DNA of 64,000 nucleotides from Syntrophales bacterium (GCA_963668175.1 OY764159.1:2944001-3008000); one strand, 5' to 3'. Shown: positions 32,630 to 49,990, counted from the stretch's first letter. Numbers and translations are program-made. Notes: generated by a model from the sequence alone, not told the origin.

Positions 32630-33220
32630 TTACTCCTTGGACCGTCTCTTCGATCTCTTGCCGTTGTCTTCCTCCGGCTCGCCTTCCAGATCGAGTTCTT
32701 CGACGGTGATGTTGTCGTTCGTGTAAATGCATATTTCCGAAGCGATCCGGACCGACTCGGCGGCGACTTCGGCGGCCGAAAGGTCCGAATACTTCACGAG
32801 GGCCCGGGCCGCGGCGAGGGCATAGGGGCCGCCCGATCCGATGGCCATGACGTTGTCGTCGGACTCGATGACGTCGCCGGTTCCCGAAATCATCAGGAAA
32901 TGCTCGCGGCTCGCGGCCACCATGATGGCCTCCAGGTGCCGCAGCATCCGGTCTGTCCTCCAGTCCTTCGTCAGTTCGACGGCGGCGCGCAGGAGATTGC
33001 CGCGATACTGCTCCAGCCGCTGGTCGAAGCGGTCGAAGAGCGTAAAGGCGTCGGCCGTGGCCCCGGCAAAACCGATGATGACTTCGTTGTTATATAGCCT
33101 GCGGACCTTCCTCGCCCCGTGCTTCATGACGGTGATGTCCACCGTGACCTGCCCGTCGCCGGCGATGACGACCTTCCCCTTATGTTTGACGGCCACGATC
33201 GTGGTGCCGCGTATCTTCAT
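32630..33220 (-). CDS. hslV: ATP-dependent protease subunit HslV
   Basis: N-terminal 'GTTI', 'GDGQVT', 'GFAGATADA', 'AIGSGG'. Confidence 0.97.
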
Positions 33221-34179
33221 GTCTTCGTTTCCTCCTTGGTTTGTCCGGCCTGCGCATCCGTCTTGTGTTGTCCGTCCCCTTCCCCGCCGGCCTTGGGGTG
33301 GGCCTTGTCGTAGACCTCCATGAGCCTGCTCACGCTCACCTGTGTGTATTTCTGCGTCGTCGAGAGGCTTTCGTGGCCCAGCATCTCCTGGATGGAGCGG
33401 AGGTCCGCCCCGGCGTCCATCAGGTGCGTCGCGAAGGAATGGCGGAGCTTGTGGGGGCTGATCTTGCGGCCGATGCCGCTTGCCTCCACCCTTTTCTCCA
33501 CGATCCTGGCGATGCTCCGGGGATTGAGCCTCTGTCCTTCCCGCCCCGTGAAGAGCGGTCCCGCCTCGCGGCCTTCCGCATCTCCCCGCACCGCGAGATA
33601 CCGTCCCACGGCCGAAAGCGCCGGAGCGCCCACGGGAACAAGCCTCTCCTTCTTGCCCTTCCCCTTGACCTTCACGAGGGCCTGGGCCTCGTCCAGATCG
33701 GGCACGTCGAGGTTCGCCAGTTCCGAAAGCCTGATGCCCGACGAATAAAACAACTCCACGATCGCCCTGTCCCGCAGGGCCGTTTCGTCGTCGCCCCCGG
33801 CCTCCGCGTTCAGGACGTTCATCATCTCGTCCACGGACAGGAACACCGGCACGTGCTTTTCCGCCTTCGGGGCCAGTACCGCCTCGGCGGGATTGGACGC
33901 CACCCTTCCCTCTCTTACGAGGTAGTCGAAGAAGGACCGGATCGCCGAGAGCTTCCGGGCCATCGTCACCTTCTTCAGCTTCTGCCGGTAGAGCGAGGCC
34001 ATGTAGGCCCGCACCGTCAGGTGGTCGATCCCCTCTGGTTTCGGCTCCGCTCCGGGCCTGTTCTCGGCGAGAAAGTCCGTGAACTGTCTCAGGTCGGCCA
34101 GGTAATTTTTCCGTGTGTGCCCGGAAAGATTCCTTTCGACGGCCATGTATTTTTCGAACGCCGCTATCGACTCTTTCAT
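33217..34179 (-). CDS. xerC: Tyrosine recombinase XerC
   Basis: '[17 protein letters not shown]', 'GKGKKER', '[10 protein letters not shown]', 'LGH..LSTTQKY'; directly upstream of hslVU. Confidence 0.9.
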
Positions 34180-36334: not shown

Positions 36335-36543
36335 GACCAACCGGAAACGTGGTTCTCCGCCGGACGCCGCAGGCATCAGGCAGCATCAAAACGCCTTATT
36401 ATATGGTCTGTCCATAGTCAACTACTTTTTACGCGTCATCCGACGGCCATACGACCGATTACATAGTCGTTTTTCCGGGGGAAAACGGGATCGGGTTATC
36501 CGGGCGCCGCTCATGCGCCCGCCGGACGGGAGAATGGTCCGGA

Positions 36544-36888
36544 TTACGCGTGTTTGACGGATTCGTCGTCGCCGGCGTAGCCGACGCCCCACTGGTACAG
36601 GGTATCCAGGATGGGCAGGAGCGTGCGGCCCGATCCGGTCAGGGAGTATTCGACCTTCGGCGGCACCTGGGTGTACACGAATCTCCTGACCAGCCCGTCC
36701 CGCTCCAGTTCACGCAGCTGCTGCGTCAGCATCTTCTGGGTGATGCCGGGCATCGTCCGCCTCAGGTCGCTGAACCTCAGGGTGTTTTCCCCCAGGTGCC
36801 ACAGGATGAGCGATTTCCACTTCCCGCCGATCAGATCGAGCGTCAATTCCATATGGCAGTGGTATTCGATATCCCTAAACCTGATCAA
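36544..36888 (-). CDS. HxlR-family winged-helix transcriptional regulator
   Basis: 'GGKWK', '[18 protein letters not shown]', '[10 protein letters not shown]'; N-terminal Cys; divergent from the flavoprotein gene. Confidence 0.92.
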
Positions 36889-36935
36889 GGCGATCCCCTC
36901 CCCGGCTCCTTATTCCATCCGCGGCAGGCGGACAC

Positions 36936-36975
36936 GGTATACAAACAGGTACTACGATACGAAATAGTGCGTACT
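36936..36975. promoter_or_regulatory. Putative HxlR operator region
   Basis: Imperfect repeats GTATACAAACAGGTAC / GATACGAAATAGTGCGTAC in the divergent intergenic region; assignment is inference. Confidence 0.35.
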
Positions 36976-37091
36976 TGCATGTTACGTTATTACCGTTTAT
37001 TCTTATAACACAGGCGGCATTATCCGGAAACGGAAAGTCGCATCCTGCGGCGTATATTTTAAATTAAAGACATGATTGGAGGAGGACGCTC

Positions 37092-37670
37092 ATGAAAGTC
37101 GTGGCATTCAACGGAAGTCCCAGGGCCAAGGGCAATACCGCCCAGAGCCTGAAAATCGTCCTGGCGGAAATCGAGCTCGCCGGCATCAAGACGGAATTCG
37201 TCCAGTTGGGGGGGCGCAAGGTCTTCGGGTGCCTGGCGTGCATGAAGTGCTGGGAGAACCAGGACGGCCGCTGCGCTCGGACGGACGACAAGATGAATTC
37301 GTACATCGAGAAGATGCAGGAGGCCGACGGCATCCTTATCGGCTCCCCCACCTATTTCAGCAACGTGACGTCGGAGGTGAAGGCCCTCATCGACCGCTGC
37401 GGCTACGTGTCGATGGCGAACGGCGGCGTCATGCTCCGGGGCAAGGTCGGCGCGGGCGTCGTCGCCGTGGGGCGCGCCGGGGCCACCTTCACCTATTCGG
37501 CCATCAACTTCTTCTTCGGGATTGCGGAGATGATCATACCCAGCAGCAACTACTGGAACATGACCCTGGCCATGGAGCCGGGCGACGTCCACAAGGACGA
37601 ATTCGGCGTCCAGACCTTCCAGCTTCTGGGCCGGAACTTCGCCAAAGTCCTCAAGCAGGTCAGAAAGTAA
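37092..37670 (+). CDS. Iron-sulfur flavoprotein (multimeric flavodoxin WrbA/Isf family)
   Basis: 'FNGSPR..GNT', CxxCxxC...C ('GCLACMKC...C'), 'GSPTYF', 'KALIDR', 'SNYWN'; RBS GGAGGA. Confidence 0.9.
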   Translation: MKVVAFNGSPRAKGNTAQSLKIVLAEIELAGIKTEFVQLGGRKVFGCLACMKCWENQDGRCARTDDKMNSYIEKMQEADGILIGSPTYFSNVTSEVKALIDRCGYVSMANGGVMLRGKVGAGVVAVGRAGATFTYSAINFFFGIAEMIIPSSNYWNMTLAMEPGDVHKDEFGVQTFQLLGRNFAKVLKQVRK

Positions 37671-37808
37671 CCCAGGGGGGCCTCCGTGGATGCGCAACGT
37701 TCGCCGAGGCCGTCTTATTGAAAGCATAATGGATCGAAGACTTGCTTCTGAAACGAACGAATAATAGGCGTCGTGTTCCTTATTTATGGGCACTTACAAG
37801 AATGTGTA

Positions 37809-38024
37809 TTATTCTTTCATAACATTGAAGAATTCCCTGACCGCGTCGAGCAATGCGCCGATACAGAAAACACCGGCAATAACGGCGCCGACGATAACAA
37901 AGGGATGGTAAGGAAGATCGTTGTTCAGGCAGAAAACAATGACAACGAATATGGCCAGGAAACAAAAGACGATTCCTGCTGCGGAATCAAGAAGAATGTA
38001 GATTTTCATCCCCATTCTGAGCAT
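37809..38024 (-). CDS. Hypothetical small two-TM membrane protein (cassette 1)
   Basis: 71-aa ORF with two hydrophobic stretches in AT-rich DNA; no family recognised. Confidence 0.5.
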   Translation of the reverse strand: MLRMGMKIYILLDSAAGIVFCFLAIFVVIVFCLNNDLPYHPFVIVGAVIAGVFCIGALLDAVREFFNVMKE

Positions 38025-38118
38025 AAAAACCCACCTGTTACGATTGTATCGCTTCTACTTCATACATATTTATAACCGTCCTCTCAATTTGTTGCAACAT
38101 GAAAATGATGGTTTAATT

Positions 38119-38466
38119 TTATCGATCCCATTCCGGTGTGCCCATCTTCATAATTTCATCGCGATACCGTTGTATGCTGATTGAGTATCCTTGATAATAT
38201 TCCTGACTATAAATAGTGACGGTGTCGTTCGGCATGACATGAATAATACCGGACGAATATTTATCACGAAATACATCATTACCCATTGCCTCAAATCTCC
38301 TGCTTTGATTCATATAATTGAGAAGAAGTTCCCTGTCTTCGCCAGAATTGAGCGGCTTACCGCCGATATCTTCTTGGTCTAAGGTTAAGACATAAGGACT
38401 GATGCCAAGCACGCTCATGCCTACGCGTCTACCATATTTAAACATCGGATACATTATGTAGGACAT
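38119..38466 (-). CDS. Hypothetical protein (cassette 1)
   Basis: AAGGAG RBS precedes ATG at 38466 (MSYIMYP..., 115 aa); AT-rich; no family recognised. Confidence 0.6.
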   Translation of the reverse strand: MSYIMYPMFKYGRRVGMSVLGISPYVLTLDQEDIGGKPLNSGEDRELLLNYMNQSRRFEAMGNDVFRDKYSSGIIHVMPNDTVTIYSQEYYQGYSISIQRYRDEIMKMGTPEWDR

Positions 38467-38670
38467 TCGAATGTTCTCCTTTTCTGTTAATTCTAAGCGA
38501 CATTCCGAAGGATATGCCCTCATAAGCTTCCATCTAATCCAAAACATTCATGCATTTGAAGTTGCACGAGCTCATGAGTGCCATGCGAATCCTTTATTAT
38601 CTTGCGCGCATTATTCCATATATGCAATATATAGTCAAGCTATATTTCTACTATTGAAATCTTCGCTCTT

Positions 38671-38823
38671 GGGATTGCGGAGATGATCGTGCCGGCGAGC
38701 AACTACTGGAACATGACCCTGGCCATGGAGCCGGGCGACGTCCACAAGGACGAATTCGGCGTGCAGACCTTCCAGCTTCTGGGCCAGAACTTCGCGAAAG
38801 TCCTCAAGCAGGTCAGGAAATAA
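38671..38823 (+). repeat. Displaced 153-bp copy of the flavoprotein gene 3' end (matches 37518-37670)
   Basis: 11 mismatches in 153 bp, no indels; translates GIAEMIVPASNYWNMTLAMEPGDVHKDEFGVQTFQLLGQNFAKVLKQVRK*. Confidence 0.97.
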
Positions 38824-38884
38824 TGCGGCGTATATCTGCTTCGGCGCAAGGCCGGCGGGGACGGAATGTTTTCGGGCGGGGATG

Positions 38885-38930
38885 CTCCTCCGATGCGAGT
38901 TTCAAGCCTTGCATCGGAGGAGGTCTTTCT
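38885..38930. terminator. Hairpin terminator downstream of repeat copy 2
   Basis: CTCCTCCGATGC...GCATCGGAGGAG 12-bp inverted repeat followed by GTCTTTCT. Confidence 0.6.
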
Positions 38931-39202
38931 AACGGCGGTACATCACACGATATGTTGCATGATCGCGGCGTATCCGGACCGTTGCGTCGGTTCTTCGGTC
39001 TGGCGAAGCATCCTGAACGGATAACCGGGCCTGTTTTCCAGGGATGGCAGGTTATTTAAACAGCACCGTACAAAACCACGTGAAAGCGAGATGTGCGGGA
39101 AATCAACTGTCGCAGGATGTCGTGTAAGTTTCGGTTCAGATCGAGAGGCAATGGAGGGCAACTTCCGGAAGTACGGTGCTGCTCCCAGCAAACCTGTCTG
39201 TT

Positions 39203-39334
39203 TCAGCCTGGGCAGCTTGTCTTCAGGTAATAAAGGCAAAGCTGCGTAACGCGCTCATTCGGCCCGTGCATGACGGGCGCCAATGTGAATTCCTCCTCCT
39301 TCTTCTTCGCGGGAACTTCCTTTTTTTCTTTCAT
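39203..39334 (-). CDS. Small 43-aa peptide (cassette 2); possibly a 92-aa selenoprotein extending to 39056
   Basis: RBS AGGAAGGA then MKEKKEVPAKKKEEEFTLAPVMHGPNERVTQLCLYYLKTSCPG-TGA; too short for the ORF track. Confidence 0.45.
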   Translation of the reverse strand: MKEKKEVPAKKKEEEFTLAPVMHGPNERVTQLCLYYLKTSCPG

Positions 39335-39664
39335 GTCGATTCCTTCCTACAACGTTCCCTTCCTTCGCGGGAGAGCATAAGAAATTTTGTCGCGCAGACA
39401 ATTGGACGATGTCTGAAAGATACATAGGATTATGACCCGGATTTAGGTAGGATTATGGGGAAGGATTACTGTACGCCGCGAGACGGTCAGGAGTTGTTCC
39501 GGATGCTGCCGAAGATACTTGGATTTTCAAAAATCCTTCCGGCCGTTCGTATTGATCATGATTCCCGGACGGAATATTATTTATTGAAGACTGACTCGCT
39601 GGATGGCTGGATAAAGGGATAGCGCGCCTTCTGACCAGAGGACAACGGGCCGTGGAATTAATCC

Positions 39665-39754
39665 GGCGACGTCCACAAGGACGAATTCGGCGTCCAGACC
39701 TTCCAGCTTCTGGGCCGGAACTTCGCGAAAGGCCTCAGGCGGTTCAGGAAGTAA
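39665..39754 (+). repeat. Displaced 90-bp copy of the flavoprotein gene 3' end (matches 37581-37670)
   Basis: 6 mismatches in 90 bp, no indels; translates GDVHKDEFGVQTFQLLGRNFAKGLRRFRK*. Confidence 0.95.
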
Positions 39755-39838
39755 TAAGGCAGGTTCTTTTAGATAGCGCGAGGCTGTGGAGGACGATCTT
39801 TTTTAGGCCGATTCTGACCACCAAACATAAACGAATGA

Positions 39839-41182
39839 TTATAGTGTTAGATAGCCCTGCTCCAAGGCATTGATTTTTGTAGCTTTAGAAGCATATACAA
39901 AAGACAGTGAGTGTTCTAATTGATGATCCTTTTCTTTCCCTCTTGCATCTTCTGCATACGACTGGACAGCATTTTCAGCTCTACTGAGCAATTCGTCGAA
40001 TGTTATTACTTCTGGATTATGGAGGTTTCTTCTGAAAGATTCAAATATCTTCATCTTATCTCTATTTGATTTTAAATCATTCGTATTTCCGATAACGAGA
40101 ATTCCTTTGGGATGATGAGTGTAAATATCTTGATCTTCAAGCAAATCTCTGTTTTCGTCTGTCCTGGAACCTTCAATTGCCCATCTCCAGCATTGTTGTT
40201 GAAGCTGTGCAACACCACCGACTAAGTCTTCCCCGAATTCATATGTTCTATTCCTATATTTTTTATCTGATACAAGATTAGAATTTGGCCGCTTGATTTC
40301 GACCAGTACAGTGAATTTTATTTGAGCAGAAGTTGCTAGTAAGAAATCGCCCTCTAGGGAACCGGTGCCCGTTAAGTCTTTGCCTCCGAATGAGGGCCTA
40401 CATTCTAATATGTGTAAAAACTGATAACTCAAGCCGTATCCGAAAATCCATTTATTTTTCTCAAAAAACTTCTGCCAGTCAGTTTCCAGCCAATCGCTTT
40501 TCTGTAAATGTGTTCGGAAGTCTTCAACTTGGGCATTTCTAATGGACCATAGGCGTTTGTGAGCCAGCACATCGGGTAATTCTGCTCCGACTTGCCCTAA
40601 AACATCCCAGAAATGTTTACCGAATACTTCTGGTAATATAGCAGCAAATTCATTTTCTCGCCCGGCAACCAGCACTTTCGGATCGATTTTAGATTCATTT
40701 AAAAGACTTATTAAAATATCAATTCTTTGCGGATCAGCGTTTTTCCATGCCCGCAGAAGTTCCAGATTGATATGCTTGCTAAACAAAGTTTTAATATCCG
40801 ATTCGGACAGCATTGACCAATCAATATTAGCAGCTGAAATTACGTCCGATCCCTTTATTAACATGGCAAAGTAAGTTGTTGCCGCATCACCGGATGCGTT
40901 TTCCAGATAATTGTCAATATTAACAACTGTAACACAATATCCTTGACCCTGCACTTTGCCTTGTTTGGCATATTTATTTCTCGTTAATAGCAATGCAGGT
41001 TTCTTGTCTGACGGACAAGAACTTGTGACCAGATTTGCTAAACATTTGCCATTGCGAAACTGAGCCTTTCCATGATGAAAAACCTCTTCCCAATCGAAAT
41101 CGTAAAATATATGAATCCCACACATATTCTCTGAGGCGCCATACTTAAATGATAACGGTGATTCCCAAGGGATTGGCGACAT
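39839..41182 (-). CDS. sduA: Shedu-type anti-phage nuclease (DUF4263 C-terminal domain)
   Basis: 'ETDWQKFFEKNKWIFG', 'DFLL', 'VLVEIKRP', 'YRN', 'GGVAQ', 'ILVIG', 'FESFRRNL.NPEVITFDELL'; AT-rich; RBS AAGGAG. Confidence 0.85.
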   Translation of the reverse strand: MSPIPWESPLSFKYGASENMCGIHIFYDFDWEEVFHHGKAQFRNGKCLANLVTSSCPSDKKPALLLTRNKYAKQGKVQGQGYCVTVVNIDNYLENASGDAATTYFAMLIKGSDVISAANIDWSMLSESDIKTLFSKHINLELLRAWKNADPQRIDILISLLNESKIDPKVLVAGRENEFAAILPEVFGKHFWDVLGQVGAELPDVLAHKRLWSIRNAQVEDFRTHLQKSDWLETDWQKFFEKNKWIFGYGLSYQFLHILECRPSFGGKDLTGTGSLEGDFLLATSAQIKFTVLVEIKRPNSNLVSDKKYRNRTYEFGEDLVGGVAQLQQQCWRWAIEGSRTDENRDLLEDQDIYTHHPKGILVIGNTNDLKSNRDKMKIFESFRRNLHNPEVITFDELLSRAENAVQSYAEDARGKEKDHQLEHSLSFVYASKATKINALEQGYLTL

Positions 41183-41599
41183 ATCATCTCCTTAATCATT
41201 GTTCTGTCGTTAACCAGCACGTTATTTTTGATTAATTTAAATACGTTCTTGGAAAAACTTTTGTAAGAGTACGTCTCTTTTCACACCCCGCCGGGAAGAC
41301 TCCGCCGTCTCTAGAAAATCTCAGCCTCGAACATTTTTAAGCATTTTTTATAAAAAAAGCGGAGAATATGACTTTATACAAATCACCAACTCCGCTCAGA
41401 TATTCACGTATTTTATAGGCGTAAATCAACTAGAAAAAAGAATATATTCTAAAAAGAAAATGTCAAGCAAGATTTTATATATACTGACATAATTCCACGG
41501 GCATCATCCCATGACAGGGGAACGCGGTCCTCAATAATGGATATACCGATAAGCTAATTTATAATCCGCAGTTTCCCTCCCCCCGCCCCCTGCCAGCTC

Positions 41600-42742
41600 T
41601 CAAACCTTCTCCACCTTGATCCCCGCCGGGATGCCGCTTTCGCAGGGGACGTTGACCTGGCAGCGGCCGCAGTAGATCGTGTAGTTCGTATTGTCCGGGT
41701 AATTGGCCTTGACGTAGGGCGTGACGACGGTGGTCACATATTTGAAGCAGGCGTTCTTGTTGCGGCCCGGCACACCCTCCTTGTAGCTCTGGATCGCCTG
41801 GGACGGGCAGTGGTTCGCGCAGATGCCGCACTGCTGCCCGCCCGACGCGAAATAGAGGCAGTAGTCGCGGTGGGAGACATAGGGCCGCGGCGTCACGGGG
41901 AGCCTCGCCTTGACGATGGCGGAGGCGCAGCGGTGGGCCTTGCCCACCGGCGTGATCAGGCCGTCGGAGAGGCCGAAGGTCCCCAGGCCCGCGCAGTAGG
42001 CGTAATGCCGCTCCGACCACGTGGACGCGAAGCCGTAGGCGCTCTGCGGGACGATCCGGAAGTGCGTCGTGATGGAGGCGGAAGCGGCATAGTAGCCCTT
42101 CGCGGAAAGCATCTCGAGGACGCCCCGTCGGGAGCGGTCGGCGGACATCTCCCCGAAGACGCGGCCCTTGCCCCAGCGGCGGCTGGGATACTTGTCTGGG
42201 AGCGCGCGCTGCTCCGCCTTCACCTTCTCCTGGAACGGCAGGATCCAACTGATCACCGTCAGGTCCGCGTCGGTGCAGGGGATGCCGGGATGGACCTTTT
42301 TGAAGAGTTCCAGCGGCGTCATGTGGAAGGGCGCGACGTTGATCTTGAGGGCGAGCACGGCGGGATCGTCGCCCCGGACGAAACCGACGATGGGCATGTC
42401 GTAGGCATGCTCGAACGGCTCCGGCGGGACATTGTTGGGGATGAGCTTGTAGTAATCGTCGCCCGCCTGCGGCGTATCCATGCCGAGGGAGTTCTGTTTG
42501 CTTTTGACGAAGTCCCTGAGGTTCCCGGCAACCTCCTTCGCCAGGGCGGCGTCGCCTTCGCCCGCCGCCGCGGCCTGGGCCTCCGCAACGGGGAACCGGG
42601 GAATGGCGGCCATCAGCCCCGCGCCCGCCGCCAGGGTGAAGAGTTTCCGGCGGGTTATTTCGACCGGTCGAAAGGGTTTGTCTTCATACGTATCCGCGGG
42701 CATCTCCGGATGCTCCGTATATTTCTCTCTTGCATCTTTCAT
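41600..42742 (-). CDS. Tat-exported QueG/reductive dehalogenase-like double [4Fe-4S] protein
   Basis: Twin-Arg 'ITRRKLF' plus hydrophobic stretch and AQA; 'SERHYAYCAGLGTFGLSDGLITP'; 8 Cys in C-x9-CxxCxxxCP...C...CxxCxxxxPC; start uncertain (up to 42787). Confidence 0.75.
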   Translation of the reverse strand: MKDAREKYTEHPEMPADTYEDKPFRPVEITRRKLFTLAAGAGLMAAIPRFPVAEAQAAAAGEGDAALAKEVAGNLRDFVKSKQNSLGMDTPQAGDDYYKLIPNNVPPEPFEHAYDMPIVGFVRGDDPAVLALKINVAPFHMTPLELFKKVHPGIPCTDADLTVISWILPFQEKVKAEQRALPDKYPSRRWGKGRVFGEMSADRSRRGVLEMLSAKGYYAASASITTHFRIVPQSAYGFASTWSERHYAYCAGLGTFGLSDGLITPVGKAHRCASAIVKARLPVTPRPYVSHRDYCLYFASGGQQCGICANHCPSQAIQSYKEGVPGRNKNACFKYVTTVVTPYVKANYPDNTNYTIYCGRCQVNVPCESGIPAGIKVEKV

Positions 42743-43020
42743 CGTCATTCTCCCCGGCGGCCTGCCGCCTGTTTCCATTGTATTCAACGCATGCGCGGAT
42801 TCACACGACCCTTCCGCGCCCGGTATCGATATATGCTATTTTAAACGCAAAGCGGCAAAATGTCATTGGGTAAAAACAGGTAGGTATTGTAGATGGAAGC
42901 GGACGGAAAAAACCGCCGGCCGATACCCGTTGACATACCGGACGGACGCCCGTATATAGAGTGACAAACCGGCGGGAAAGACCGATCATCTGAAGAGTTT
43001 CTTCGTCAAGGAGGGATGGT

Positions 43021-43584
43021 ATGCGGCTGCGGATTCTCTTTCTTCTCGTCCTTCTTCTCGTCCTTCTTCTCGTCCTTCTTCTTATCCTTGCATCCGCGGC
43101 CTCGCCAGTTTACAGCATGGACAACTGCTTTCCCGGCAAGAATCGCGTCCTGTCGTCGCCGGCAGGACATGAATGGACGTGGTCGGAAAGAAAGAGCGAC
43201 CGCGACTCGCACCGCCTTCTCTATCGTGCCGCCGCCTCGGAGCCTTTCCGGGAACTGCTGGCCTTCGACCGGGAGGTCTGCATCCTCCCGTCGCCCGACA
43301 ACAAATCCTTTGCAGTCACGGACCACATCGGAAGCAATATCTCCGAAACGCTGATCTATCGTCACGACGACATTGCCCATCCGGTCCATGTCATGGATAT
43401 TTTACCTGAGAGGCTCCGCCGCATACTCTTCAAAGGTGTATCGCATTGCTATGTCAAGGCCGTTTCCTGGGATAACGGGGGGCTGACAGTCCGCGTGCAC
43501 GGCGACCGCGATCCCGATCCCCCGCGCTTCGATGTTACACTGAGATGCATGGAAAAGGACGGGACGTGGCGCTGCGAGCCGTGA
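43021..43584 (+). CDS. Hypothetical secreted protein
   Basis: RBS AGGAGG; Leu-rich signal peptide ending ASA; beta-rich mature part ('SPDNKSFAVTD'). Confidence 0.65.
   Translation: MRLRILFLLVLLLVLLLVLLLILASAASPVYSMDNCFPGKNRVLSSPAGHEWTWSERKSDRDSHRLLYRAAASEPFRELLAFDREVCILPSPDNKSFAVTDHIGSNISETLIYRHDDIAHPVHVMDILPERLRRILFKGVSHCYVKAVSWDNGGLTVRVHGDRDPDPPRFDVTLRCMEKDGTWRCEP
43042..43089 (+). repeat. 12-bp tandem repeat (CTTCTCGTCCTT)x3 plus 1 degenerate unit, in the signal peptide
   Basis: Read directly; encodes LLVL LLVL LLVL LLIL. Confidence 0.9.
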
Positions 43585-43701
43585 TGCGGCAGGCATGGCG
43601 ATGAATCCCGCCGCAGCTTCTTTCCGGCGGCAGGCGCGGCGCGTCCCTCTGATTATAATGGCTATTGCTCGCGGGAGATTTATGGCGGGCGCCGACACGG
43701 G

Positions 43702-44292
43702 CTACGTCTTGTCCGCATCCTTCCGTTCGCAGGCGAACTCGTTCTCTTCGTCCCGGTAGAAGTCGCAGGCGTTCGACAGCGCCTCCCGCAGTTTCGCCCG
43801 GGCGCGGTGGAGCCTGATCTTCGTGGCCTGGAGGCTCAAGCCGACGATGTCGGCAATCTCGCTGTCCTTGAACCCTTCCAGTTCGCTGAGGACAATGACG
43901 GACCGGTAGGAATCGGGCAGCTGATCGACGATCCCGCGGATGCAGCCGTTCATCTCCTCGCGCAGCATCTTCCTTTCGGCGGAATGCCGCCGCTCGTCCG
44001 TCCCGATCTTACCGTCTTCTTCGATTTCCGTCATCTCATCTATGGGGAGCCGCTGCGATTCGCCGCGCGACGAACGGAGCCTGTCCAGGGCCGCGTTCGT
44101 CGCTATCCGGTAAATCCAAGTCGACAAGGCCGATTCGCCCCGGAAGGCGTCCAGGCCCCGGCCGACCCTGACGAAGACCTCCTGCGTGAGGTCTTCCGCT
44201 TCGCATTCCCTGGCTATGCGGGCCACGTAGCGCAAGACCTTCGCACGGTATTCCTCGTAGATCTCCTGAAATCTCCGTTCGGATTCGTCCAT
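43702..44292 (-). CDS. ECF sigma factor with Cys-containing C-terminal tail (SigZ/CorE-like)
   Basis: 'AEDLTQEVF', 'TWIYRIATN', region 4 'EIA.IVGLS..ATKIRLHRAR'; tail 'ACDFYRDEENEFACERK'. Confidence 0.9.
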   Translation of the reverse strand: MDESERRFQEIYEEYRAKVLRYVARIARECEAEDLTQEVFVRVGRGLDAFRGESALSTWIYRIATNAALDRLRSSRGESQRLPIDEMTEIEEDGKIGTDERRHSAERKMLREEMNGCIRGIVDQLPDSYRSVIVLSELEGFKDSEIADIVGLSLQATKIRLHRARAKLREALSNACDFYRDEENEFACERKDADKT

Positions 44293-44332
44293 CCCGTCCG
44301 TCCTTTCGGTCCGTCCTTCCGGTCAGACGCGG

Positions 44333-44590
44333 TTACGAACAGCAGCAGGGCGCTTCGCGGCCGCCGCACGGCTGATCGGCCGGCTTGCCGCCGAGAAGCT
44401 TCCCCGTCAGCTTGTCCATGCTGGCGGCGGCGCCTCCCCGGACCGCCTTCCCTACCTCGACGGCCTCCATAAGCTCGCTTTTGCTTATACCATATTCCAG
44501 CGCCTTGCCGACATGATATTCTAAACAGGGATGGCAATTGGCGCCTATCGACGCACCCACTGCAATCAGCTTTTTCACCTTATCTTCCAT
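44333..44590 (-). CDS. Carboxymuconolactone decarboxylase/AhpD-family protein
   Basis: 'LIAVGASIGANCHPCLEYH'; C-terminal CGG...CCCS. Confidence 0.82.
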   Translation of the reverse strand: MEDKVKKLIAVGASIGANCHPCLEYHVGKALEYGISKSELMEAVEVGKAVRGGAAASMDKLTGKLLGGKPADQPCGGREAPCCCS

Positions 44591-44846
44591 TTCTTTTCTC
44601 CTCGCTTTTCTTGATGGTTCCGATTTCTTCCCGCAGTTCCCCGATCTCCTTTTTCATCTCGTCAAGATCGGCGTGACCCGGCCCGCCCCAGCAGCAGAAC
44701 CGCCTGCCCGGCATCCTCGACCTCATCCGGATGCACATGAAGATGCATACCGCCATGCAGAGGAGCGGCACCAGCCACCACCATCCCCACGTTCCCCACG
44801 TTCCCCACGTTCCCCACGTTCCCCATGCCCCATCCCAACACCACAT
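44580..44846 (-). CDS. Small Trp/Cys-rich membrane protein
   Basis: RBS GGAGG; MWCWDG-(WGT)4-WWW, TM 'LVPLLCMAVCIFMC', CC pair, C-terminal coiled coil. Confidence 0.65.
   Translation of the reverse strand: MWCWDGAWGTWGTWGTWGTWGWWWLVPLLCMAVCIFMCIRMRSRMPGRRFCCWGGPGHADLDEMKKEIGELREEIGTIKKSEEKRNGR
44785..44820 (-). repeat. 9-bp tandem repeat (CCCCACGTT)x4 on the + strand
   Basis: Read directly; encodes (WGT)4 on the minus strand. Confidence 0.95.
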
Positions 44847-44875
44847 AAAGCCTCCTTTCATGTTTATGAAACCGT

Positions 44876-45103
44876 TTACGACCCGTGTCGGCAGCACCCT
44901 TTTTCCTTTTTTGTGGAAATTCCAAGAAGCGTATAGGAAGGACAGAAACCGAGAACGGCCGAAAGGAGAAGCGGTACGCTCAGGACATACAGGACCGTTC
45001 CCGTCCCTCCGCCCGCAAACGTCGCCCCGGCGATAATCAGGGCGATGCCGAGGACAATCCGCACGATTCGATCCAACATACCGACATTTCCGCTTACCTT
45101 CAT
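44876..45103 (-). CDS. DUF2892 (YgaP-like) membrane protein
   Basis: 'NVGMLDRIVRIVLG', 'GFCPSYTLLGIST'; C-terminal CC; RBS AGGAGG. Confidence 0.85.
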   Translation of the reverse strand: MKVSGNVGMLDRIVRIVLGIALIIAGATFAGGGTGTVLYVLSVPLLLSAVLGFCPSYTLLGISTKKEKGCCRHGS

Positions 45104-45138
45104 TTCCGCGATCCTCCTTTCTCTCCTTTTTGACTTAT

Positions 45139-45167
45139 TAGACGTATGGCGAACCGGAAAGGATACA
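45139..45167 (-). promoter_or_regulatory. Putative ECF-type promoter
   Basis: TGTATCC-N16-CGTCTA on the minus strand, 35 bp upstream of the DUF2892 start. Confidence 0.6.
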
Positions 45168-45227
45168 TGCCTTGCGAAAACGATTGCAGGCCGGTCGGCA
45201 AACGGAAAGGAAACCCGGCGGAAGTCC

Positions 45228-45264
45228 AAAAGAAAAGGCCGGGAGCATTGCGCTTCCGGCCCTT
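45228..45264 (-). terminator. Intrinsic terminator after flavoprotein 45292-46812
   Basis: GGCCGGAAGC..GCTCCCGGCC hairpin followed by TTTTCTTTT on the minus strand. Confidence 0.65.
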
Positions 45265-45291
45265 GTTTCATGTATCGGTTGAACTATTTTT

Positions 45292-46812
45292 CTAGCGTTT
45301 CTTGCCCTTGGCCTTCGCCGCGGCAGGCGCTTTCGCCATCGCCGCCGCTTCCGCACCGGCTATGCGACCCATGACGAGGCAGTTCGCAAGCGACGCCCCG
45401 CCGATATAGTCGTCGTAATAGAGGCCGCCCGCGCATTCCCCGGCCGCAAAGAGTCCGGGAATGACGGTGCCGTCCGCTTCCTGGGCCTGCGCCTTCTCGT
45501 TGATCCTGATCCCGCCGAAGGTCAGCGTGATGCCGGGTGAGAGCGGATAGAAGGCGTAGAACTTGGGCGTCCCGATCTTGAAAGCGAAGGCCGTTTTCGG
45601 CGGCTTCGCATCGAGGGCCTTCCCGTCCTTGACCACCGCGTTGAAATCGGCCACGGTTTTCTCCAGGGCGGCCGCCGGTACGCCGATCTTCCCTGCCAGT
45701 TCGGCCAGGGTGTTCGCTTCGACGATGTCGATTCCGAGGCCGGCAAACTGCGAGACCGCCGCGGAAACGCCGGACTGCTTCTTCAGTTCTTCGTCGAAGA
45801 TCATGGCCACGGTCTGCCCCGGCTGGCTCATCGAGGCCTTGCCGTTCGCCACGTAGCCCAACGATTCGTCGACGTAGCGGTTTCCGGCCTTGTTGATGCC
45901 CAGGGTATAGGCGATCGCCATGAAGGGGTTGCCGGCGGACGTGTTCTTCGGCGAAACGGCGGCGACGTGCACGGACGCCATACCGCCCATGTTGACCCAC
46001 ATGGCCCCTGCTTCTCGGGCCATCGTCAGGCCGTCGCCCGTGGCGTACTTCACGCCCCGGACCATCATCTCGTCGGCGTCGGGATCGACGAAGGTTTCCA
46101 GGAACTCCTTGTTGCCCCCGTAGCCGCCCGCCGCGATGATCACGGCATCGGCCATGTAGTCCTTGAGCGCCTTGCCGTCCATCGCCCGGACGCCGACGAC
46201 GGCGCCGCTGTCGTTCATGATGAGCTGCTTGGCCTTCGTGTTGTAGCAAATCTTGCCGCCCTTCTTCGCCAGCGTGTTCCGGAGGGCTTCCAGTCCCTTG
46301 GGCATGCCTTTATAGGCCGACGGCTTGAAGATGACGCACTTCACGCGGTAACCCGCCACCGTGACCGGCGGGGTCAGATCCGCACCCTGGGCCGCCAGCC
46401 ACTCGACCGCATCCAGCGTCTGGTCGGCGAGCACACGGGAAAGGACCTTGTTGCCCTTGCCGCTGCTCTTCTTCATGAAGTCTTCGTAGTATTCGTCTTT
46501 CGCCGCCTGGCTGTTCTCTCTCGGAATGGCGATGAGGCCGCCCGCCAGCTTCGAGTTGCCGCCGACGACATCCTCGCCCATCTTCTCCAGGACGGCGACC
46601 TTCGCTCCCGAATTGGCGGCCGACACCGCGGCGGCCATACCGGCCATGCCCGTCCCGATGACGACGACGTTATAGGATTCGCTCTTGGCCGCTTTCGGGA
46701 GAAGGGCCGCATCCGCCATGTCGATCTTGCCTAACGCCAGAAAACCGGCGCCAAGGCCTACGCCCTTGAGAAACTGTCTCCTGTCGACAGAACCTTTCTT
46801 CTTTTCTTCCAT
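45292..46812 (-). CDS. Tat-exported FAD-dependent oxidoreductase (flavocytochrome c/TcuA-like flavin subunit)
   Basis: 'VDRRQFLKG' Tat motif; 'VIGTGMAG', 'AAGGYG', 'TGDG', 'ITLTFGGIRIN', 'GLFAAGE'. Confidence 0.85.
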   Translation of the reverse strand: MEEKKKGSVDRRQFLKGVGLGAGFLALGKIDMADAALLPKAAKSESYNVVVIGTGMAGMAAAVSAANSGAKVAVLEKMGEDVVGGNSKLAGGLIAIPRENSQAAKDEYYEDFMKKSSGKGNKVLSRVLADQTLDAVEWLAAQGADLTPPVTVAGYRVKCVIFKPSAYKGMPKGLEALRNTLAKKGGKICYNTKAKQLIMNDSGAVVGVRAMDGKALKDYMADAVIIAAGGYGGNKEFLETFVDPDADEMMVRGVKYATGDGLTMAREAGAMWVNMGGMASVHVAAVSPKNTSAGNPFMAIAYTLGINKAGNRYVDESLGYVANGKASMSQPGQTVAMIFDEELKKQSGVSAAVSQFAGLGIDIVEANTLAELAGKIGVPAAALEKTVADFNAVVKDGKALDAKPPKTAFAFKIGTPKFYAFYPLSPGITLTFGGIRINEKAQAQEADGTVIPGLFAAGECAGGLYYDDYIGGASLANCLVMGRIAGAEAAAMAKAPAAAKAKGKKR

Positions 46813-47268
46813 GGAAACCTCCTTTTTCGTGTTACGGGTTGATTTTCACTCTACGTCATATACTTGCTGCAGCGGCCGTACCGGACCGCTTTCCCCGCAC
46901 CGCCGGCAACAGGATAAATTCCGGGCAGAAGGGGGAGAGGATACATACAGAAATAACCGTATAAAACCGGGTGAGGCAAGCCATCATTGTCAAGCGGCAA
47001 CATAGATTCCCGAGCGGCAAAATTCGCAGGATATTTGGGCATAAACGTTCGTGCATGTACTCGACGGCAGCGCCGTTGGGCATGCGACAACGCGCCGGTT
47101 GAGGCGATGCCGCTGCTCCCGGTGCCTGGTCGTTTCAGCGCTTTATCGTGTTATGCCTTTTTCGAACCGCCTCCTGCCTACCGGCCCTCGCCTATTCTCC
47201 TTAAAACACATACCGTCGGAATGCTTCGATCTCCGTTCTGTCGATTTTCGCGTTTTATGGAGAAACTT

Positions 47269-47301
47269 AAAGAGGCTGCGGTTTTCCTCCGCAGCCTCTT
47301 T
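47269..47301. terminator. Terminator after flavoprotein 47314-48807
   Basis: Perfect 13-bp inverted repeat AAAGAGGCTGCGG / CCGCAGCCTCTTT. Confidence 0.75.
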
Positions 47302-47313
47302 CGATCGTTTGAA

Positions 47314-48807
47314 TTACTTGGAAACCAGGATGCTCTTTACGGCCAGGCGCCCGAAGATCAGGGCCTTGCCGAAGGCCGTACCCGTCATGTAGGCGGCGCC
47401 GTGGACGCCTCCCACGATCTCTCCCGCCGCGTATACGCCGGGAACGACATCCCCGTAGATGTTGAGGATCTGGGCTTTTTCGTTGGTTCGGATGCCGCCG
47501 TAGGTCCCGAGGATGAAGGCCGTCGAGATCATCGCGTAGTAGGGCGGCTTGTCGATCTTGACCGGCTTGCCGAAGGCGGCCACCAGGGTGTTCCTGCTGA
47601 ACAGGGGGTCCGACCCCTTGTCAACGTTGGCGTTGTATTCATTCACCGTGGCTTCGAGAACCGCCGGGGCGATGCCGATGGCGGAGGCGAGTTCGCCGAT
47701 GGTGTTCGCCTGCTTGATCCGCCCCTTTTTCTCCAGGGATTCCGTTTTTGCCAGCTGGTCCTTGTTGGCCTCGGCGCGGATGGCCGAGTCGTAGATCTGG
47801 TAGCCGACGGCCTCGGGCTGTACCAGGGCCGCATCGCCGACCAGCTTATAGGAGATCGATTCGTTGACGAAGCGCTTGCCCGCCTTGTTCACGACGATCG
47901 CGCCCTTGTAATAGACGAGGGCGAAATCGGCCATCGTCGAGGCCTCCGTATCGAAGCCGAAGGTCGCCTTGATGTAGGGCATGTCGAGGAGGTCCGCGCC
48001 GGACGCCCAGGCCATCTTCAGGCCGTCGCCGTTGCAGCCCAGGCCGACCATGGCCTTGGCCTTCGCCATGGGGGGCACGAACTTCGCCAGGAGCTCCGCG
48101 TTGCGGGAGAAACCGCCGCTCGCCAGGATGACGCCCTTCTTGGCCCCGTAGTAGCTGACCTTTCCGCCCTTCTCCACCGTTACGCCCCGGACCTTACCGG
48201 TCTTCTCGTCGAGTACGAGCTTGGAAGCCGCCCTGTCGAGGAATATTTTGGCGCCTTTCGCCTTCGCCGCATCGCCCAGGACCTTGATGACTTCGCTGGG
48301 AGTCACGTAATGGGAGCGGGGCACGCTCATGCCGCTCGCGATTCCCAGGCCCTTGAATACGACGCCCAGTTCCTTGAGCCATTTGTAGGTATCGAGCTGA
48401 TTATCGATATAGGCCTTGACCAGCGCCGGGTCGTTGACGTTTTCACCGACTTTGAAAAGGTCCTTGCTGAAGAGCTCATTTGAATCCTGAATGTTCTTGG
48501 CGGCCTGCATATCCGTTCCCGCAAACGCCAGCGCCCCGCCGCAGATGAGGCTGCTTCCCCCCATCGCCGGCGTCTTCTCCAGGACGACGACCTTGGCGCC
48601 GCTCGATGCGGCCGCAGTCGCCGCCGAGAGTCCCGCGCCGCCCGCACCGACGATAACGATATCCACGTCCATGTCCCATTTCTTCGGCACCTTGGCGAAG
48701 GCGTCCTTCATGTCGAACGTCGTCAACATGGCCGCCGCACCGGCACCGGCCGTTGCCATCTTAATGAAACTCCTTCTGTTCAACCCTTTCTTTCCTTCAT
48801 TCTCCAT
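47314..48807 (-). CDS. Tat-exported flavocytochrome c flavin subunit-like oxidoreductase
   Basis: 'LNRRSFIK' Tat motif; 'VGAGGAGL', 'GKRFVNE', 'YAAGEIVGGVHG'; RBS GAGGAGG. Confidence 0.87.
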   Translation of the reverse strand: MENEGKKGLNRRSFIKMATAGAGAAAMLTTFDMKDAFAKVPKKWDMDVDIVIVGAGGAGLSAATAAASSGAKVVVLEKTPAMGGSSLICGGALAFAGTDMQAAKNIQDSNELFSKDLFKVGENVNDPALVKAYIDNQLDTYKWLKELGVVFKGLGIASGMSVPRSHYVTPSEVIKVLGDAAKAKGAKIFLDRAASKLVLDEKTGKVRGVTVEKGGKVSYYGAKKGVILASGGFSRNAELLAKFVPPMAKAKAMVGLGCNGDGLKMAWASGADLLDMPYIKATFGFDTEASTMADFALVYYKGAIVVNKAGKRFVNESISYKLVGDAALVQPEAVGYQIYDSAIRAEANKDQLAKTESLEKKGRIKQANTIGELASAIGIAPAVLEATVNEYNANVDKGSDPLFSRNTLVAAFGKPVKIDKPPYYAMISTAFILGTYGGIRTNEKAQILNIYGDVVPGVYAAGEIVGGVHGAAYMTGTAFGKALIFGRLAVKSILVSK

Positions 48808-49071
48808 CTGGTATTCCTCCTCGAAATTGCGTGTGATAGTGCTCATACAGTCTAACATTCACTGCTATATAAGATATACTCCTGACTCGCGGGTTCCTTT
48901 TCCTGCTTCGGCAGCATCGCTGCCTCCATGAAGGCTCCATTGAATACAAGATTGTATATACTTTAAGCTGAAGGTTGCACGGCGTCAAGGGAAATTTCCG
49001 AATGACATGAAGTATTTTCTCCCGTTTTGCCTTATCCCGTGGCCTGACCGACTTTCACAAAACACGCCTTT

Positions 49072-49180: not shown

Positions 49181-49990
49181 TCACTTCCGGCAGTTTCCGG
49201 CGAGCCACCGGACGGTCTCCATGTAATCCTTCATGCCCTGGAAAAAGATGTCGTTGTGGTTCGCTCCGGGTATCTTCAGAAGTTTCTTGATCGCCGCGGG
49301 CGATCTTTCGTACAGCGCCTGCCCGTCGGAGTACGGAATGATCTGGTCGTATTCGGCATGGATAACGAGCGTCGGTCCGCCGTAGGCGGCGATCTTGTCG
49401 ATGTTCCGGAACCCCTGCTCCTCGGTCAGGCCGAGCATCTGGAGGTTGACCCCCATGAGTTGCAGGAGCGGCCCTGTGTAGGCGAAACCGCTTTCGATAA
49501 TCAGGCCGCCGATCCTGTCGCGGTAATGGGCGGCCAGTTCCAGCGCCGAGGCGCTTCCCAGGGACCGTCCCATGACGATCAGGGGGCCGGTGAAGCCGTT
49601 CTTCTCCAGCCAGTCGAGGGTATGGGCGAAGATGACATGGCTGTCCCGCATCATGGAGGTGATGGTGGGCATGCCGGTGGAACGGCCGTATCCCCGGTAT
49701 TCGACGGGATAGAAATGAAGGCCCGCTTCGGTAAAGAGCCCGGCGATGTCGTCGTAGTCGGCCACGATCTCGCCGTTGCCGTGGAAAAAGAGGATCGCGG
49801 GTGCGGTTTTATCGGCAGCCCTGTGGAACCGGGAGCCGACGACGATGCCGTTTTCGACGGGGATCAGCATGACGCCGTCGCTGTCCTCGGGGTTGGCGAG
49901 GGCCGTCCATTCGGGACGGGGATAGAAGACGAACCGGGCGATCTCCCAGCGGTCATAATCCGAGTAGTCGATCTTGGAGAGGTCTATCAT
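49181..49990 (-). CDS. Alpha/beta hydrolase
   Basis: 'FFHGNGE', 'YRGYGRSTG', nucleophile 'GRSLG', 'GANHND'. Confidence 0.9.
   Translation of the reverse strand: MIDLSKIDYSDYDRWEIARFVFYPRPEWTALANPEDSDGVMLIPVENGIVVGSRFHRAADKTAPAILFFHGNGEIVADYDDIAGLFTEAGLHFYPVEYRGYGRSTGMPTITSMMRDSHVIFAHTLDWLEKNGFTGPLIVMGRSLGSASALELAAHYRDRIGGLIIESGFAYTGPLLQLMGVNLQMLGLTEEQGFRNIDKIAAYGGPTLVIHAEYDQIIPYSDGQALYERSPAAIKKLLKIPGANHNDIFFQGMKDYMETVRWLAGNCRK

What the first reader, a model, noticed from the sequence alone, without database searches (positions are those of the whole stretch)
37092..41500. Integrase-free cassette array built on repeated 3' ends of an iron-sulfur flavoprotein gene
Seen: the gene's 3' end occurs three times in direct orientation, always ending at the TAA: intact (37518-37670), a 153-bp copy (38671-38823, 11 mismatches) and a 90-bp copy (39665-39754, 6 mismatches). 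Copy 2 has no indels, and its changes are synonymous or mild (I>V, S>A, R>Q), so it looks like an allelic gene end rather than a decayed duplicate; a hairpin terminator follows it. Each copy is followed by unrelated, more AT-rich DNA with genes on the opposite strand (two orphans; a small peptide; Shedu). No integrase or transposase lies between the copies, and the copies start at different points. Inference: the gene end is a recurrent landing pad. Incoming [gene end + cargo] units restore the gene and push older ends and cargo downstream, giving a stacked defence/accessory hotspot like tRNA-targeted islands or orphan-toxin cassettes but on a redox gene. The repeats would also let cassettes excise or amplify.
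Basis: partly seen in the sequence, partly recalled or inferred. Interest (0 to 1): 0.82.

Follow-up and report, generated by a model that had tools for sequence, protein, structure and literature searches.

The report
Orphan gene tails mark integrase-free insertions
The last 90-153 bases of a flavoprotein gene recur twice downstream between foreign genes, as do the ends of 17 other unrelated genes in this bacterium, and these are likely scars of ordinary recombination with sister strains that adds new genes without any integrase.

Summary
The repeats are real: 153 bp with 11 mismatches, 90 bp with 6. They are not an assembly chimera: a contig from an independent study spans copy 2 and both its junctions. 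Copy 2 is a sister-strain allele; a full-length 97% homologue carries all three of its substitutions. Cargo turns over: another study's strain lacks copy 3 plus Shedu. But the gene is no special landing pad. 18 unrelated genes in this genome have such orphan 3' tails, 15 of them in the terminus half, with no integrase in the cargo. Tails are short (median 97 bp) and under purifying selection. 20 of 21 junctions lie just past an intact gene, and in 12 of 21 the more foreign DNA lies behind the tail. So tails are probably often dragged in with new cargo by one-sided homologous recombination, not only pushed downstream. Closest known: insertion with long target duplication, rhs tip displacement, HFIR. 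This scan already noted the pattern at tupA in this genome and in other genomes.

The parts
36544..36888 (-). HxlR-family regulator, divergent partner of the flavoprotein gene
   Evidence: Pfam HxlR 3e-36; same pair in L051
37092..37670 (+). Intact flavodoxin-like (FMN_red) gene, 192 aa, with a CX2CX2CX7C motif (iron-sulfur flavoprotein type; motif recalled); left anchor gene
   Evidence: Pfam FMN_red 8e-30; best non-self homologues 76-80%, named ones in Sporomusa and Desulfosporosinus
37518..37670 (+). Copy 1: 3' end of the intact gene
37671..38670 (.). Cargo 1 (1.0 kb, 41.5% GC), bracketed by copies 1 and 2
   Evidence: partly present, at about twice flank depth over the 71-aa gene, in run X2
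37809..38024 (-). 71-aa hydrophobic protein, lineage-restricted
   Evidence: 3 homologues at 79-99%; no Pfam or PADLOC hit
38119..38547 (-). 142-aa orphan ORF (start could be 38466)
   Evidence: no Pfam, PADLOC or Atlas hit; promoter-like site at 38638-38610
38671..38823 (+). Copy 2: orphan 153-bp tail, a sister-strain allele
   Evidence: 11 mismatches; V149, A151, Q181 all in full-length P0001; spanned by one 579-nt contig of run X3
38885..38922 (+). Terminator-like hairpin after copy 2
   Evidence: z -5.6
38824..39664 (.). Cargo 2 (0.84 kb, 52% GC) with a 43-aa ORF at 39203-39334 on the minus strand; shared with related strains
   Evidence: covered in X1, X2, X3; low-depth contigs join 39527 or 39606 to 41599
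39665..39754 (+). Copy 3: orphan 90-bp tail; shares two synonymous changes with copy 2; last codons diverged
39839..41182 (-). Shedu (SduA) anti-phage nuclease gene, 447 aa, in a 39% GC block; strain-specific
   Evidence: zero depth over 39635-41571 in X2 with flanks at 110-150
41600..42748 (-). Convergent 4Fe-4S protein gene (weakly reductive-dehalogenase-like); right flank and candidate right-hand anchor
   Evidence: Fer4_16 5e-4 and TIGR02486 6e-6, both under cut-off
33217..34179 (-). XerC, a housekeeping recombinase; not part of the array
   Evidence: TIGR02224 345 bits over cut-off 335; syntenic in 6 of 7 relatives examined

Best explanation
The two extra gene ends are alleles from sister strains, likely left behind when host recombination added foreign genes using long homology on one side only and joined the other end without long homology. 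Two polarities give the same anatomy. (a) Push-down: donor DNA pairs in the intact gene, brings its own end plus new cargo, and rejoins inside the resident gene, whose old end is displaced (fits cargo 1 and copy 2). (b) Drag-in: donor DNA pairs in the right-hand flank, and its left end stops inside the donor's copy of the gene. That piece is too short and divergent to cross over, so it is joined to resident intergenic DNA and arrives as an orphan ahead of the new cargo (fits copy 3 plus Shedu). Once a tail exists, unequal crossover between a gene end and an orphan can stack more cassettes with no new illegitimate joint. Shown: allelic tails, 18 different target genes, intergenic junctions, strain turnover, no integrase near. 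Inferred: the recombination route, its polarity, DNA entry by transformation.
For: Full-length allele P0001 carries all three copy-2 substitutions. Pooled over 21 copies pS 0.152, pN 0.057; 85 of 187 differences synonymous against 24% expected, p 8e-11. 18 unrelated anchors (LysR, MFS, two ABC ATPases, MscS, Cmk, MBL hydrolase, CMD, PBP, DUF2585 and others) with tails of 34-526 bp, median 97, 79-100% identical and no shared junction motif by eye. 6 tyrosine recombinases (incl. XerC), 2 resolvases and 0 large serine recombinases in the genome, none at these loci. comEC, dprA and mutS present, Ku not found. 20 of 21 junctions within 350 bp of the last intact gene, against 30% of random breakpoints. 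More foreign DNA lies behind the tail in 12 of 21, in front in 6. First 8 nt of 17 tails are GC-richer than their gene ends (0.73 vs 0.63, p 0.009). Strain X2 lacks copy 3 plus Shedu; minor strains in X5, X6 and X7 join cargo 2 to the right flank gene. Two mirror cases (5' stubs upstream) exist.
Against: No donor-recipient pair was seen, so microhomology at a junction is not shown; the GC signal uses BLAST end points. The 12 versus 6 split is not significant (Wilcoxon p 0.14), and GC is a crude age proxy. Later trimming by deletion could also make junctions intergenic (identity versus length rho 0.44, p 0.06). The 18:2 excess of 3' over 5' stubs (p 0.0004) needs an extra assumption, that variable DNA sits mainly behind genes. 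At two multi-copy loci the copies start within about 10 bp of each other, which fits an inherited junction or a fixed site. HFIR is reported as rare, 1e-2 to 1e-3 of homologous transformation (PMC6382021, passages). recA was not searched; competence of this organism is untested.
Confidence: 0.62

Rival explanations
1. Strict push-down landing pad (first reader; circular-intermediate model of rhs tip displacement): circles of gene tail plus cargo excise by recombination between repeats and integrate by single crossover, the newest always next to the intact gene.
For: Anatomy matches the model in PMC2935791 (passages). Cargo 1 is the most foreign DNA next to the gene, and 6 of 21 loci have host-like DNA behind the tail. 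Whole-gene cassettes. X2 shows a gene end joined to the 71-aa gene at depth 195 against flanks of 110-125, which could be two units. Two tupA-like cassettes share their ends.
Against: 12 of 21 loci have the more foreign DNA behind the tail. Related strains keep cargo 2 and lack copy 3 plus Shedu, the supposedly oldest layer. It does not explain how the first junction arises. No circle seen, though contigs could not show one.
Confidence: 0.18
2. Decayed or trans-mobilised site-specific elements (integrase islands, CIMEs, IS91/ISCR-type rolling-circle capture) that carried a replacement gene end and then lost their enzyme.
For: Phage and ICE integration with gene-end restoration is established knowledge. 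The genome has a tRNA-Lys fragment array whose copies share an upstream arm. A scan note (e1-9508706) blames rolling-circle transposons for a tail array elsewhere.
Against: It would need about 18 different specificities, all with the enzyme lost. Copies at this locus start 63 bp apart and share no upstream arm. Cargo is only 0.7-10 kb. No Y1 or Y2 transposase found in the genome (the Y2 control rang nowhere, so that test is weak).
Confidence: 0.12
3. Local duplication of resident DNA (insertion with long target duplication at a nuclease-made break, or tandem duplication followed by decay).
For: Long, variable direct repeats spanning a stop codon with no mobile element are the published anatomy (PMC2853133, section 15). 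One locus has a 526-bp 100% copy.
Against: A self-duplication starts identical and then decays neutrally. Here differences are mostly synonymous and match an allele from another record. Neither bracketed cargo at this locus has a nuclease hit.
Confidence: 0.06
4. Assembly chimera of co-occurring strains.
For: Related strains co-occur in the source runs; no single contig spans the whole array.
Against: In X5 all five junctions are in contigs with 0 mismatches at depth 23-29, equal to the flanks (24-27); in X7 cargo 1 and Shedu are at 49-50. An independent study's contig spans 38580-39156.
Confidence: 0.02

Closest known systems
Insertion with long target duplication (Furuta, Abe and Kobayashi 2010, PMC2853133; passages and section 15 read)
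   Same: Insert under 20 kb between long, variable direct repeats, no mobile-element gene; repeats often span a start or stop codon and leave the gene intact; mostly in naturally competent species.
   Different: Described for restriction-modification genes; the tabulated repeats seen are near-identical (43/46 to 47/47). Here the repeats are divergent alleles (79-98%), cargo is mixed, cassettes stack, and 18 genes of one chromosome are hit.
rhs C-terminal displacement (Jackson et al. 2009, PMC2935791; passages) and Vibrio T6SS effector-immunity arrays (Kirchberger et al. 2017, PMC5361080; passages)
   Same: Variable-length fragments of the gene downstream in direct orientation, serial addition without integrase; circle or HFIR models proposed. 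A true Rhs orphan array lies in this genome at 2.08 Mb.
   Different: There the incoming piece changes the protein's tip. Here the tail is conserved, the protein is unchanged, and cargo genes are separate and unrelated.
[quoted passage not shown]
   Same: One homologous anchor plus one illegitimate joint integrates foreign DNA in competent bacteria.
   Different: A laboratory mechanism; not shown here. Orphan tails as its natural scar at ordinary genes is my inference.
Additive flexible genomic islands at tRNA ends (PMC4898812, PMC7771536; passages)
   Same: Stacked cassettes marked by a repeat of the target's 3' part; fast turnover between strains.
   Different: tRNA targets; here protein-coding genes, many different ones, with variable starts.
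MGE-free HGT hotspots (Oliveira et al. 2017, PMC5635113; passages)
   Same: Accessory regions without mobile elements that diversify by housekeeping recombination at flanking genes.
   Different: Double crossover replaces content and leaves no repeat; this process adds content and leaves a countable scar. MGE-free hotspots there show no ori-ter trend; these tails lie 15 of 18 in the terminus half.

Membership tests
Insertion with long target duplication | Direct repeat longer than 30 bp, insert under 20 kb, no mobile-element gene | tested here: met
   153 and 90 bp repeats; inserts 1.0 and 0.84 kb
Insertion with long target duplication | Insert carries R and M genes | tested here: not met
[quoted passage not shown]
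   92-93% here; differences match another allele
Insertion with long target duplication | Empty site in a related genome | tested here: inconclusive
   X2 lacks copy 3 plus Shedu, but no contig shows the exact empty junction
rhs/CDI/T6SS displacement arrays | Variable-length gene fragments in direct orientation downstream of the intact gene | tested here: met
rhs/CDI/T6SS displacement arrays | Variable toxin tip fused in frame to a conserved core, with immunity gene | tested here: not met
   Tails end at the same stop; cargo genes are separate and on the other strand
rhs/CDI/T6SS displacement arrays | Circular intermediate | not testable with these tools
   Only contigs cover the locus; raw-read run X9 does not
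HFIR | Short microhomology at the illegitimate joint | tested here: inconclusive
   Parents unknown; GC enrichment at 17 junctions p 0.009; fuzzy similarity before copies 2 and 3
HFIR | DNA-uptake machinery | tested here: met
   comEC (846-aa frame) and dprA (401-aa frame) without stops; presence only, also in most control genomes
HFIR | RecA dependence | not testable with these tools
   No experiment; recA not searched
Integrase island / CIME | Integrase at or near the site, or one shared att core with a fixed start and conserved arm | tested here: not met
   starts differ by 63 bp; flanks unique in the genome
Integron | attC sites and an IntI integrase | not tested
   No attC scan run; none of the 6 tyrosine recombinases lies at these loci except XerC
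Iron-sulfur flavoprotein (Isf) | Flavodoxin-like fold with compact four-cysteine motif | tested here: met
   FMN_red; C48-C51-C54-C62 in the sequence (motif recalled); one homologue named iron-sulfur flavoprotein; no NCBIfam model over cut-off
Shedu | SduA C-terminal nuclease domain in a single-gene system | tested here: met
   PF14082 1.6e-33; PADLOC SduA 1.9e-58; activity untested

The most novel reading that the evidence does not exclude
Orphan gene tails are the failed homology arms of transforming DNA: a general, enzyme-free route by which bacteria grow (not just swap) accessory and defence islands behind almost any gene. Each event leaves a dated, countable scar, and tail-plus-cargo units then spread between strains as cassettes. 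This genome, with 18 target genes, would be an unusually active case.
Probability: 0.35. Interest if true: 0.7.

Novelty: new variant of a known kind. Interest (0 to 1): 0.45.

Why it matters
Many HGT hotspots carry no mobile element, and double crossover explains replacement of their content but not growth. Allelic gene tails at many ordinary genes give a scar that can be counted in any complete genome, with length, divergence and junction position as readouts. That makes integrase-free gene gain testable by comparative genomics and by a simple transformation assay. The polarity also matters in practice: if tails are often dragged in, the newest cargo (here an anti-phage nuclease) lies behind the tail, so orphan arrays cannot be read as a simple time series. 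The single locus, on its own, is an ordinary example.

Tried and rejected
Exact-pattern scan of metagenome contigs for the tail: 0 hits. Protein scans gave 80 + 80 loci, all at 80% identity or less, so no same-species locus with flanks. The alleles in P0001's cluster could not be listed, so only P0001 itself was compared. Raw-read run X9 does not cover the locus. A longest-ORF gene caller mislabelled strands in GC-rich DNA (8 hits in G000, 2 in 94 control loci) and was replaced by a trained caller. Flavoprotein genes near miaB in six relatives are orthologues of a different paralogue, not of this gene. Candidates dropped on inspection: 2860145 (a 5' stub), 2284251 (whole small-gene copy), the Rhs array at 2.08 Mb, the paralogue arrays at 2.14 and 2.80 Mb, palindromic repeats at 2.17 Mb, tRNA-Lys fragments at 1.75-1.83 Mb. 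REP/RAYT or NHEJ involvement: no Y1 transposase or Ku found; cargo flanks are unique in the genome. Retro-copies of mRNA ends rejected: copies are local and allelic. A dif search gave no clear site; the terminus is placed by GC skew. PDB search gave 2 weak hits. Hairpins after copies 1 and 3 are no better than shuffles. Literature searches with no hit for a genome-wide description: (0 papers each); some searches gave the analogues cited. PMC2884548 (passages) and bioRxiv 10.64898/2026.01.13.699239 (abstract) did not bear directly. The library lacks most subscription papers, so absence from print is not shown; no supplements were read.
Full report
Observation. The flavoprotein gene at 37092-37670 has two downstream copies of its 3' end in direct orientation: 38671-38823 (11 of 153 bases differ, no indel) and 39665-39754 (6 of 90), both ending at TAA. 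They are far beyond chance (E 4e-60, 2e-32) and are the only such copies in the 4.57-Mb single-contig genome. Copy 2 changes I149V, S151A, R181Q and five synonymous codons; copy 3 has two synonymous changes, both shared with copy 2, and four replacements in the last seven codons. Between them lie cargo 1 (41.5% GC; 71-aa and 142-aa ORFs) and cargo 2 (52% GC; a strong hairpin and a 43-aa ORF); behind copy 3 lies Shedu (39% GC). The nearby tyrosine recombinase is XerC.

Not a chimera. In run X5 all five junctions lie in contigs with no mismatch at depth 23-29, like the flanks. X5-X8 are one sample and probably the source, so they are not independent. Independent support comes from X3, another study, where one 579-nt contig spans 38580-39156 with 17 differences. 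No contig spans the whole array.

Copy 2 is an allele. P0001, a full-length 97% homologue from another record, has V149, A151 and Q181. So the divergence arose in a working gene of another strain, not in a decaying duplicate.

Cargo turns over. The strain in X2 (third study) covers cargo 2 and the right flank at depth 110-150 but has zero depth over 39635-41571, that is copy 3 plus Shedu. It joins a gene end to the 71-aa gene at depth 195. Minor strains in X5, X6 and X7 join 39527 or 39606 to 41599, with the letters between unknown. In the nearest held relative, G002, miaB directly adjoins the gene at 49181, so all of 36.4-49 kb is accessory. The flavoprotein's best named homologues are in Sporomusa and Desulfosporosinus, so the anchor gene is itself probably imported. 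Scan notes call the host a Syntrophales bacterium; I did not test that.

The gene is not special. A genome-wide scan found 22 genes with an orphan 3' end downstream on the same strand within 30 kb, against 5 with it upstream, 8 with a 5' stub upstream and 7 downstream. A stricter second pipeline gave 17 of 3,729 genes, 15 after dropping two members of one paralogue array. My curated set is those 15 plus three shorter cases: 18 anchors, 21 copies, one of them weak (48 bp, 79%). Dropped candidates are listed under Tried and rejected. Anchors are unrelated (LysR, MFS, ABC ATPases, MscS, Cmk, MBL hydrolase, CMD, a periplasmic binding protein and others); cargo and flanks include toxin-antitoxin pairs, Fic, TPR, HNH, metabolic and sensory genes, and the only transposase-type hit among 145 proteins is a 103-aa rve fragment outside the repeats. 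Of 18 low-GC genes tested, 2 hit PADLOC. The genome has 6 tyrosine recombinases, 2 resolvases and no large serine recombinase, none at these loci but XerC. Among 97 other loci of this protein family with at least 3 kb downstream, 1 has a tail copy (L051).

Properties of the set. Pooled pS is 0.152 and pN 0.057; 85 of 187 differences are synonymous against 24% expected (that set held a third tupA-like copy and lacked the weak 48-bp case). Tail length is 34-526 bp, median 97. 3' tails outnumber 5' stubs 18 to 2, arrays excluded on both sides. With the origin at 562 kb (dnaA; skew) and the terminus near 2.88 Mb, 15 of 18 anchors lie in the terminus half (p 0.004). 20 of 21 junctions lie within 350 bp of the last intact gene, median 123 bp, against 30% and 609 bp for random breakpoints; for two loci I ignored ORFs under 67 aa that overlap the junction. 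The 1.2 kb behind the tail is at least 5 points more AT-rich than the DNA in front in 12 of 21 cases and GC-richer in 6 (not significant as a paired test, p 0.14).

Controls. The same pipeline on about 2.66 Mb from G001-G007 and G015 gave 2 cases: a clear MaoC-type tail in a small G002 contig (family recalled from the sequence) and a weak one in G004. G000 is richer (15 in 4.57 Mb, p 0.02; 14 in 1.7-3.4 Mb, 1 outside). The control is biased: most fetched DNA is core-rich and from fragmented assemblies, and G000's own core regions are just as poor. So the process is general and tracks accessory DNA; G000 is at most enriched.

Mechanism. Many targets, variable starts, allelic tails and no enzyme point to host recombination between strains (inference). 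One long anchor and one illegitimate joint (HFIR-like) gives this anatomy in two ways. Anchored in the right flank, it drags in the donor's tail when the fragment ends too little way into the gene to cross over. The second route explains short, divergent tails, junctions in resident intergenic DNA, and foreign DNA behind the tail. At this locus cargo 1 with copy 2 fits the first and copy 3 with Shedu fits the second, though a recipient that already held Shedu cannot be excluded. comEC, dprA and mutS are present and Ku was not found; presence does not show competence. Trimming by later deletion, or circles as in the rhs model, remain open.

Comparison. The anatomy matches insertion with long target duplication, where repeats often span a stop codon (PMC2853133), but fails two of its features (R-M cargo, near-identical repeats). 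It works like rhs and T6SS displacement arrays (PMC2935791, PMC5361080) but does not alter the protein. It adds a growth route to MGE-free hotspots (PMC5635113). I found no paper describing it genome-wide at ordinary genes (limited library). This scan has noted the pattern at tupA in this genome and in at least 14 other genomes; those are unchecked notes.

Verdict. Observation confirmed; interpretation partly supported. A real, integrase-free, strain-variable cassette stack, one of 18 in the genome, and a variant of a known kind. Interest 0.45, carried by the genome-wide census and the testable drag-in polarity rather than by this locus.

Noticed in passing
G000 whole genome: GC content rises from 50-54% around the origin side (3.4-4.5 Mb and 0-0.6 Mb) to 57-59% at 1.2-3.4 Mb; the nearest relative G002 is about 48% GC. 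Unexplained chromosome-scale gradient.
   Followed up: no
window 36400-49000: The whole 12.6-kb stretch between miaB and the 49181 hydrolase gene is absent at the syntenic site of G002; it holds the HxlR-flavoprotein pair, an ECF sigma factor and two flavocytochrome-c-like genes.
   Followed up: partly
L343 (G000 2079001-2093500): Rhs gene followed by about seven orphan tip modules: a classical displacement array in the same genome.
   Followed up: partly
G000 1752444-1833320: tRNA gene (Lys by scan notes) with five downstream 3'-part copies sharing an upstream arm, with no tyrosine or serine recombinase in the region.
   Followed up: partly
L046 (G000 2165000-2173000): Four 80-90 bp palindromic repeats separate single AT-rich genes upstream of a MoxR-type ATPase gene, whose 5' 343 bp plus upstream DNA is duplicated.
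   Followed up: partly
L030 and L038: Interleaved tails: a cargo gene (DUF2585; a 277-aa gene) has itself become an anchor with its own orphan tail; in L038 two orphan tails abut within about 10 bp.
   Followed up: partly
L029 (G000 637656-642602): A 100% identical 526-bp tail of an HI0933 gene separates two diverged AMP-binding enzyme genes (unit 85% alike): likely recent capture of a second allele of the downstream gene.
   Followed up: partly
G000 2143522-2153093 and 2797894-2821211: Two arrays of genes sharing a conserved C-terminal domain of about 110 aa with no Pfam hit; one member has LysM.
   Followed up: no
L051 8001-13841 and L342 8107-9238: Orphan tails in other organisms: a Firmicute-like flavoprotein gene (72 bp, 87.5%, 5.2 kb downstream) and a G002 gene (204 bp, 95%, small gene between).
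   Followed up: partly
L037 140-2934: AT-rich three-gene block (DEDDh exonuclease, HNH nuclease, unknown 332 aa) right behind the MscS orphan tail; possible defence locus.
   Followed up: no
G000, e.g. 2563056-2563252 and 1960668-1960845: A dispersed 150-200 bp inverted-repeat family with 10-15 BLAST partners per copy, though no Y1 transposase was found in the genome.
   Followed up: no
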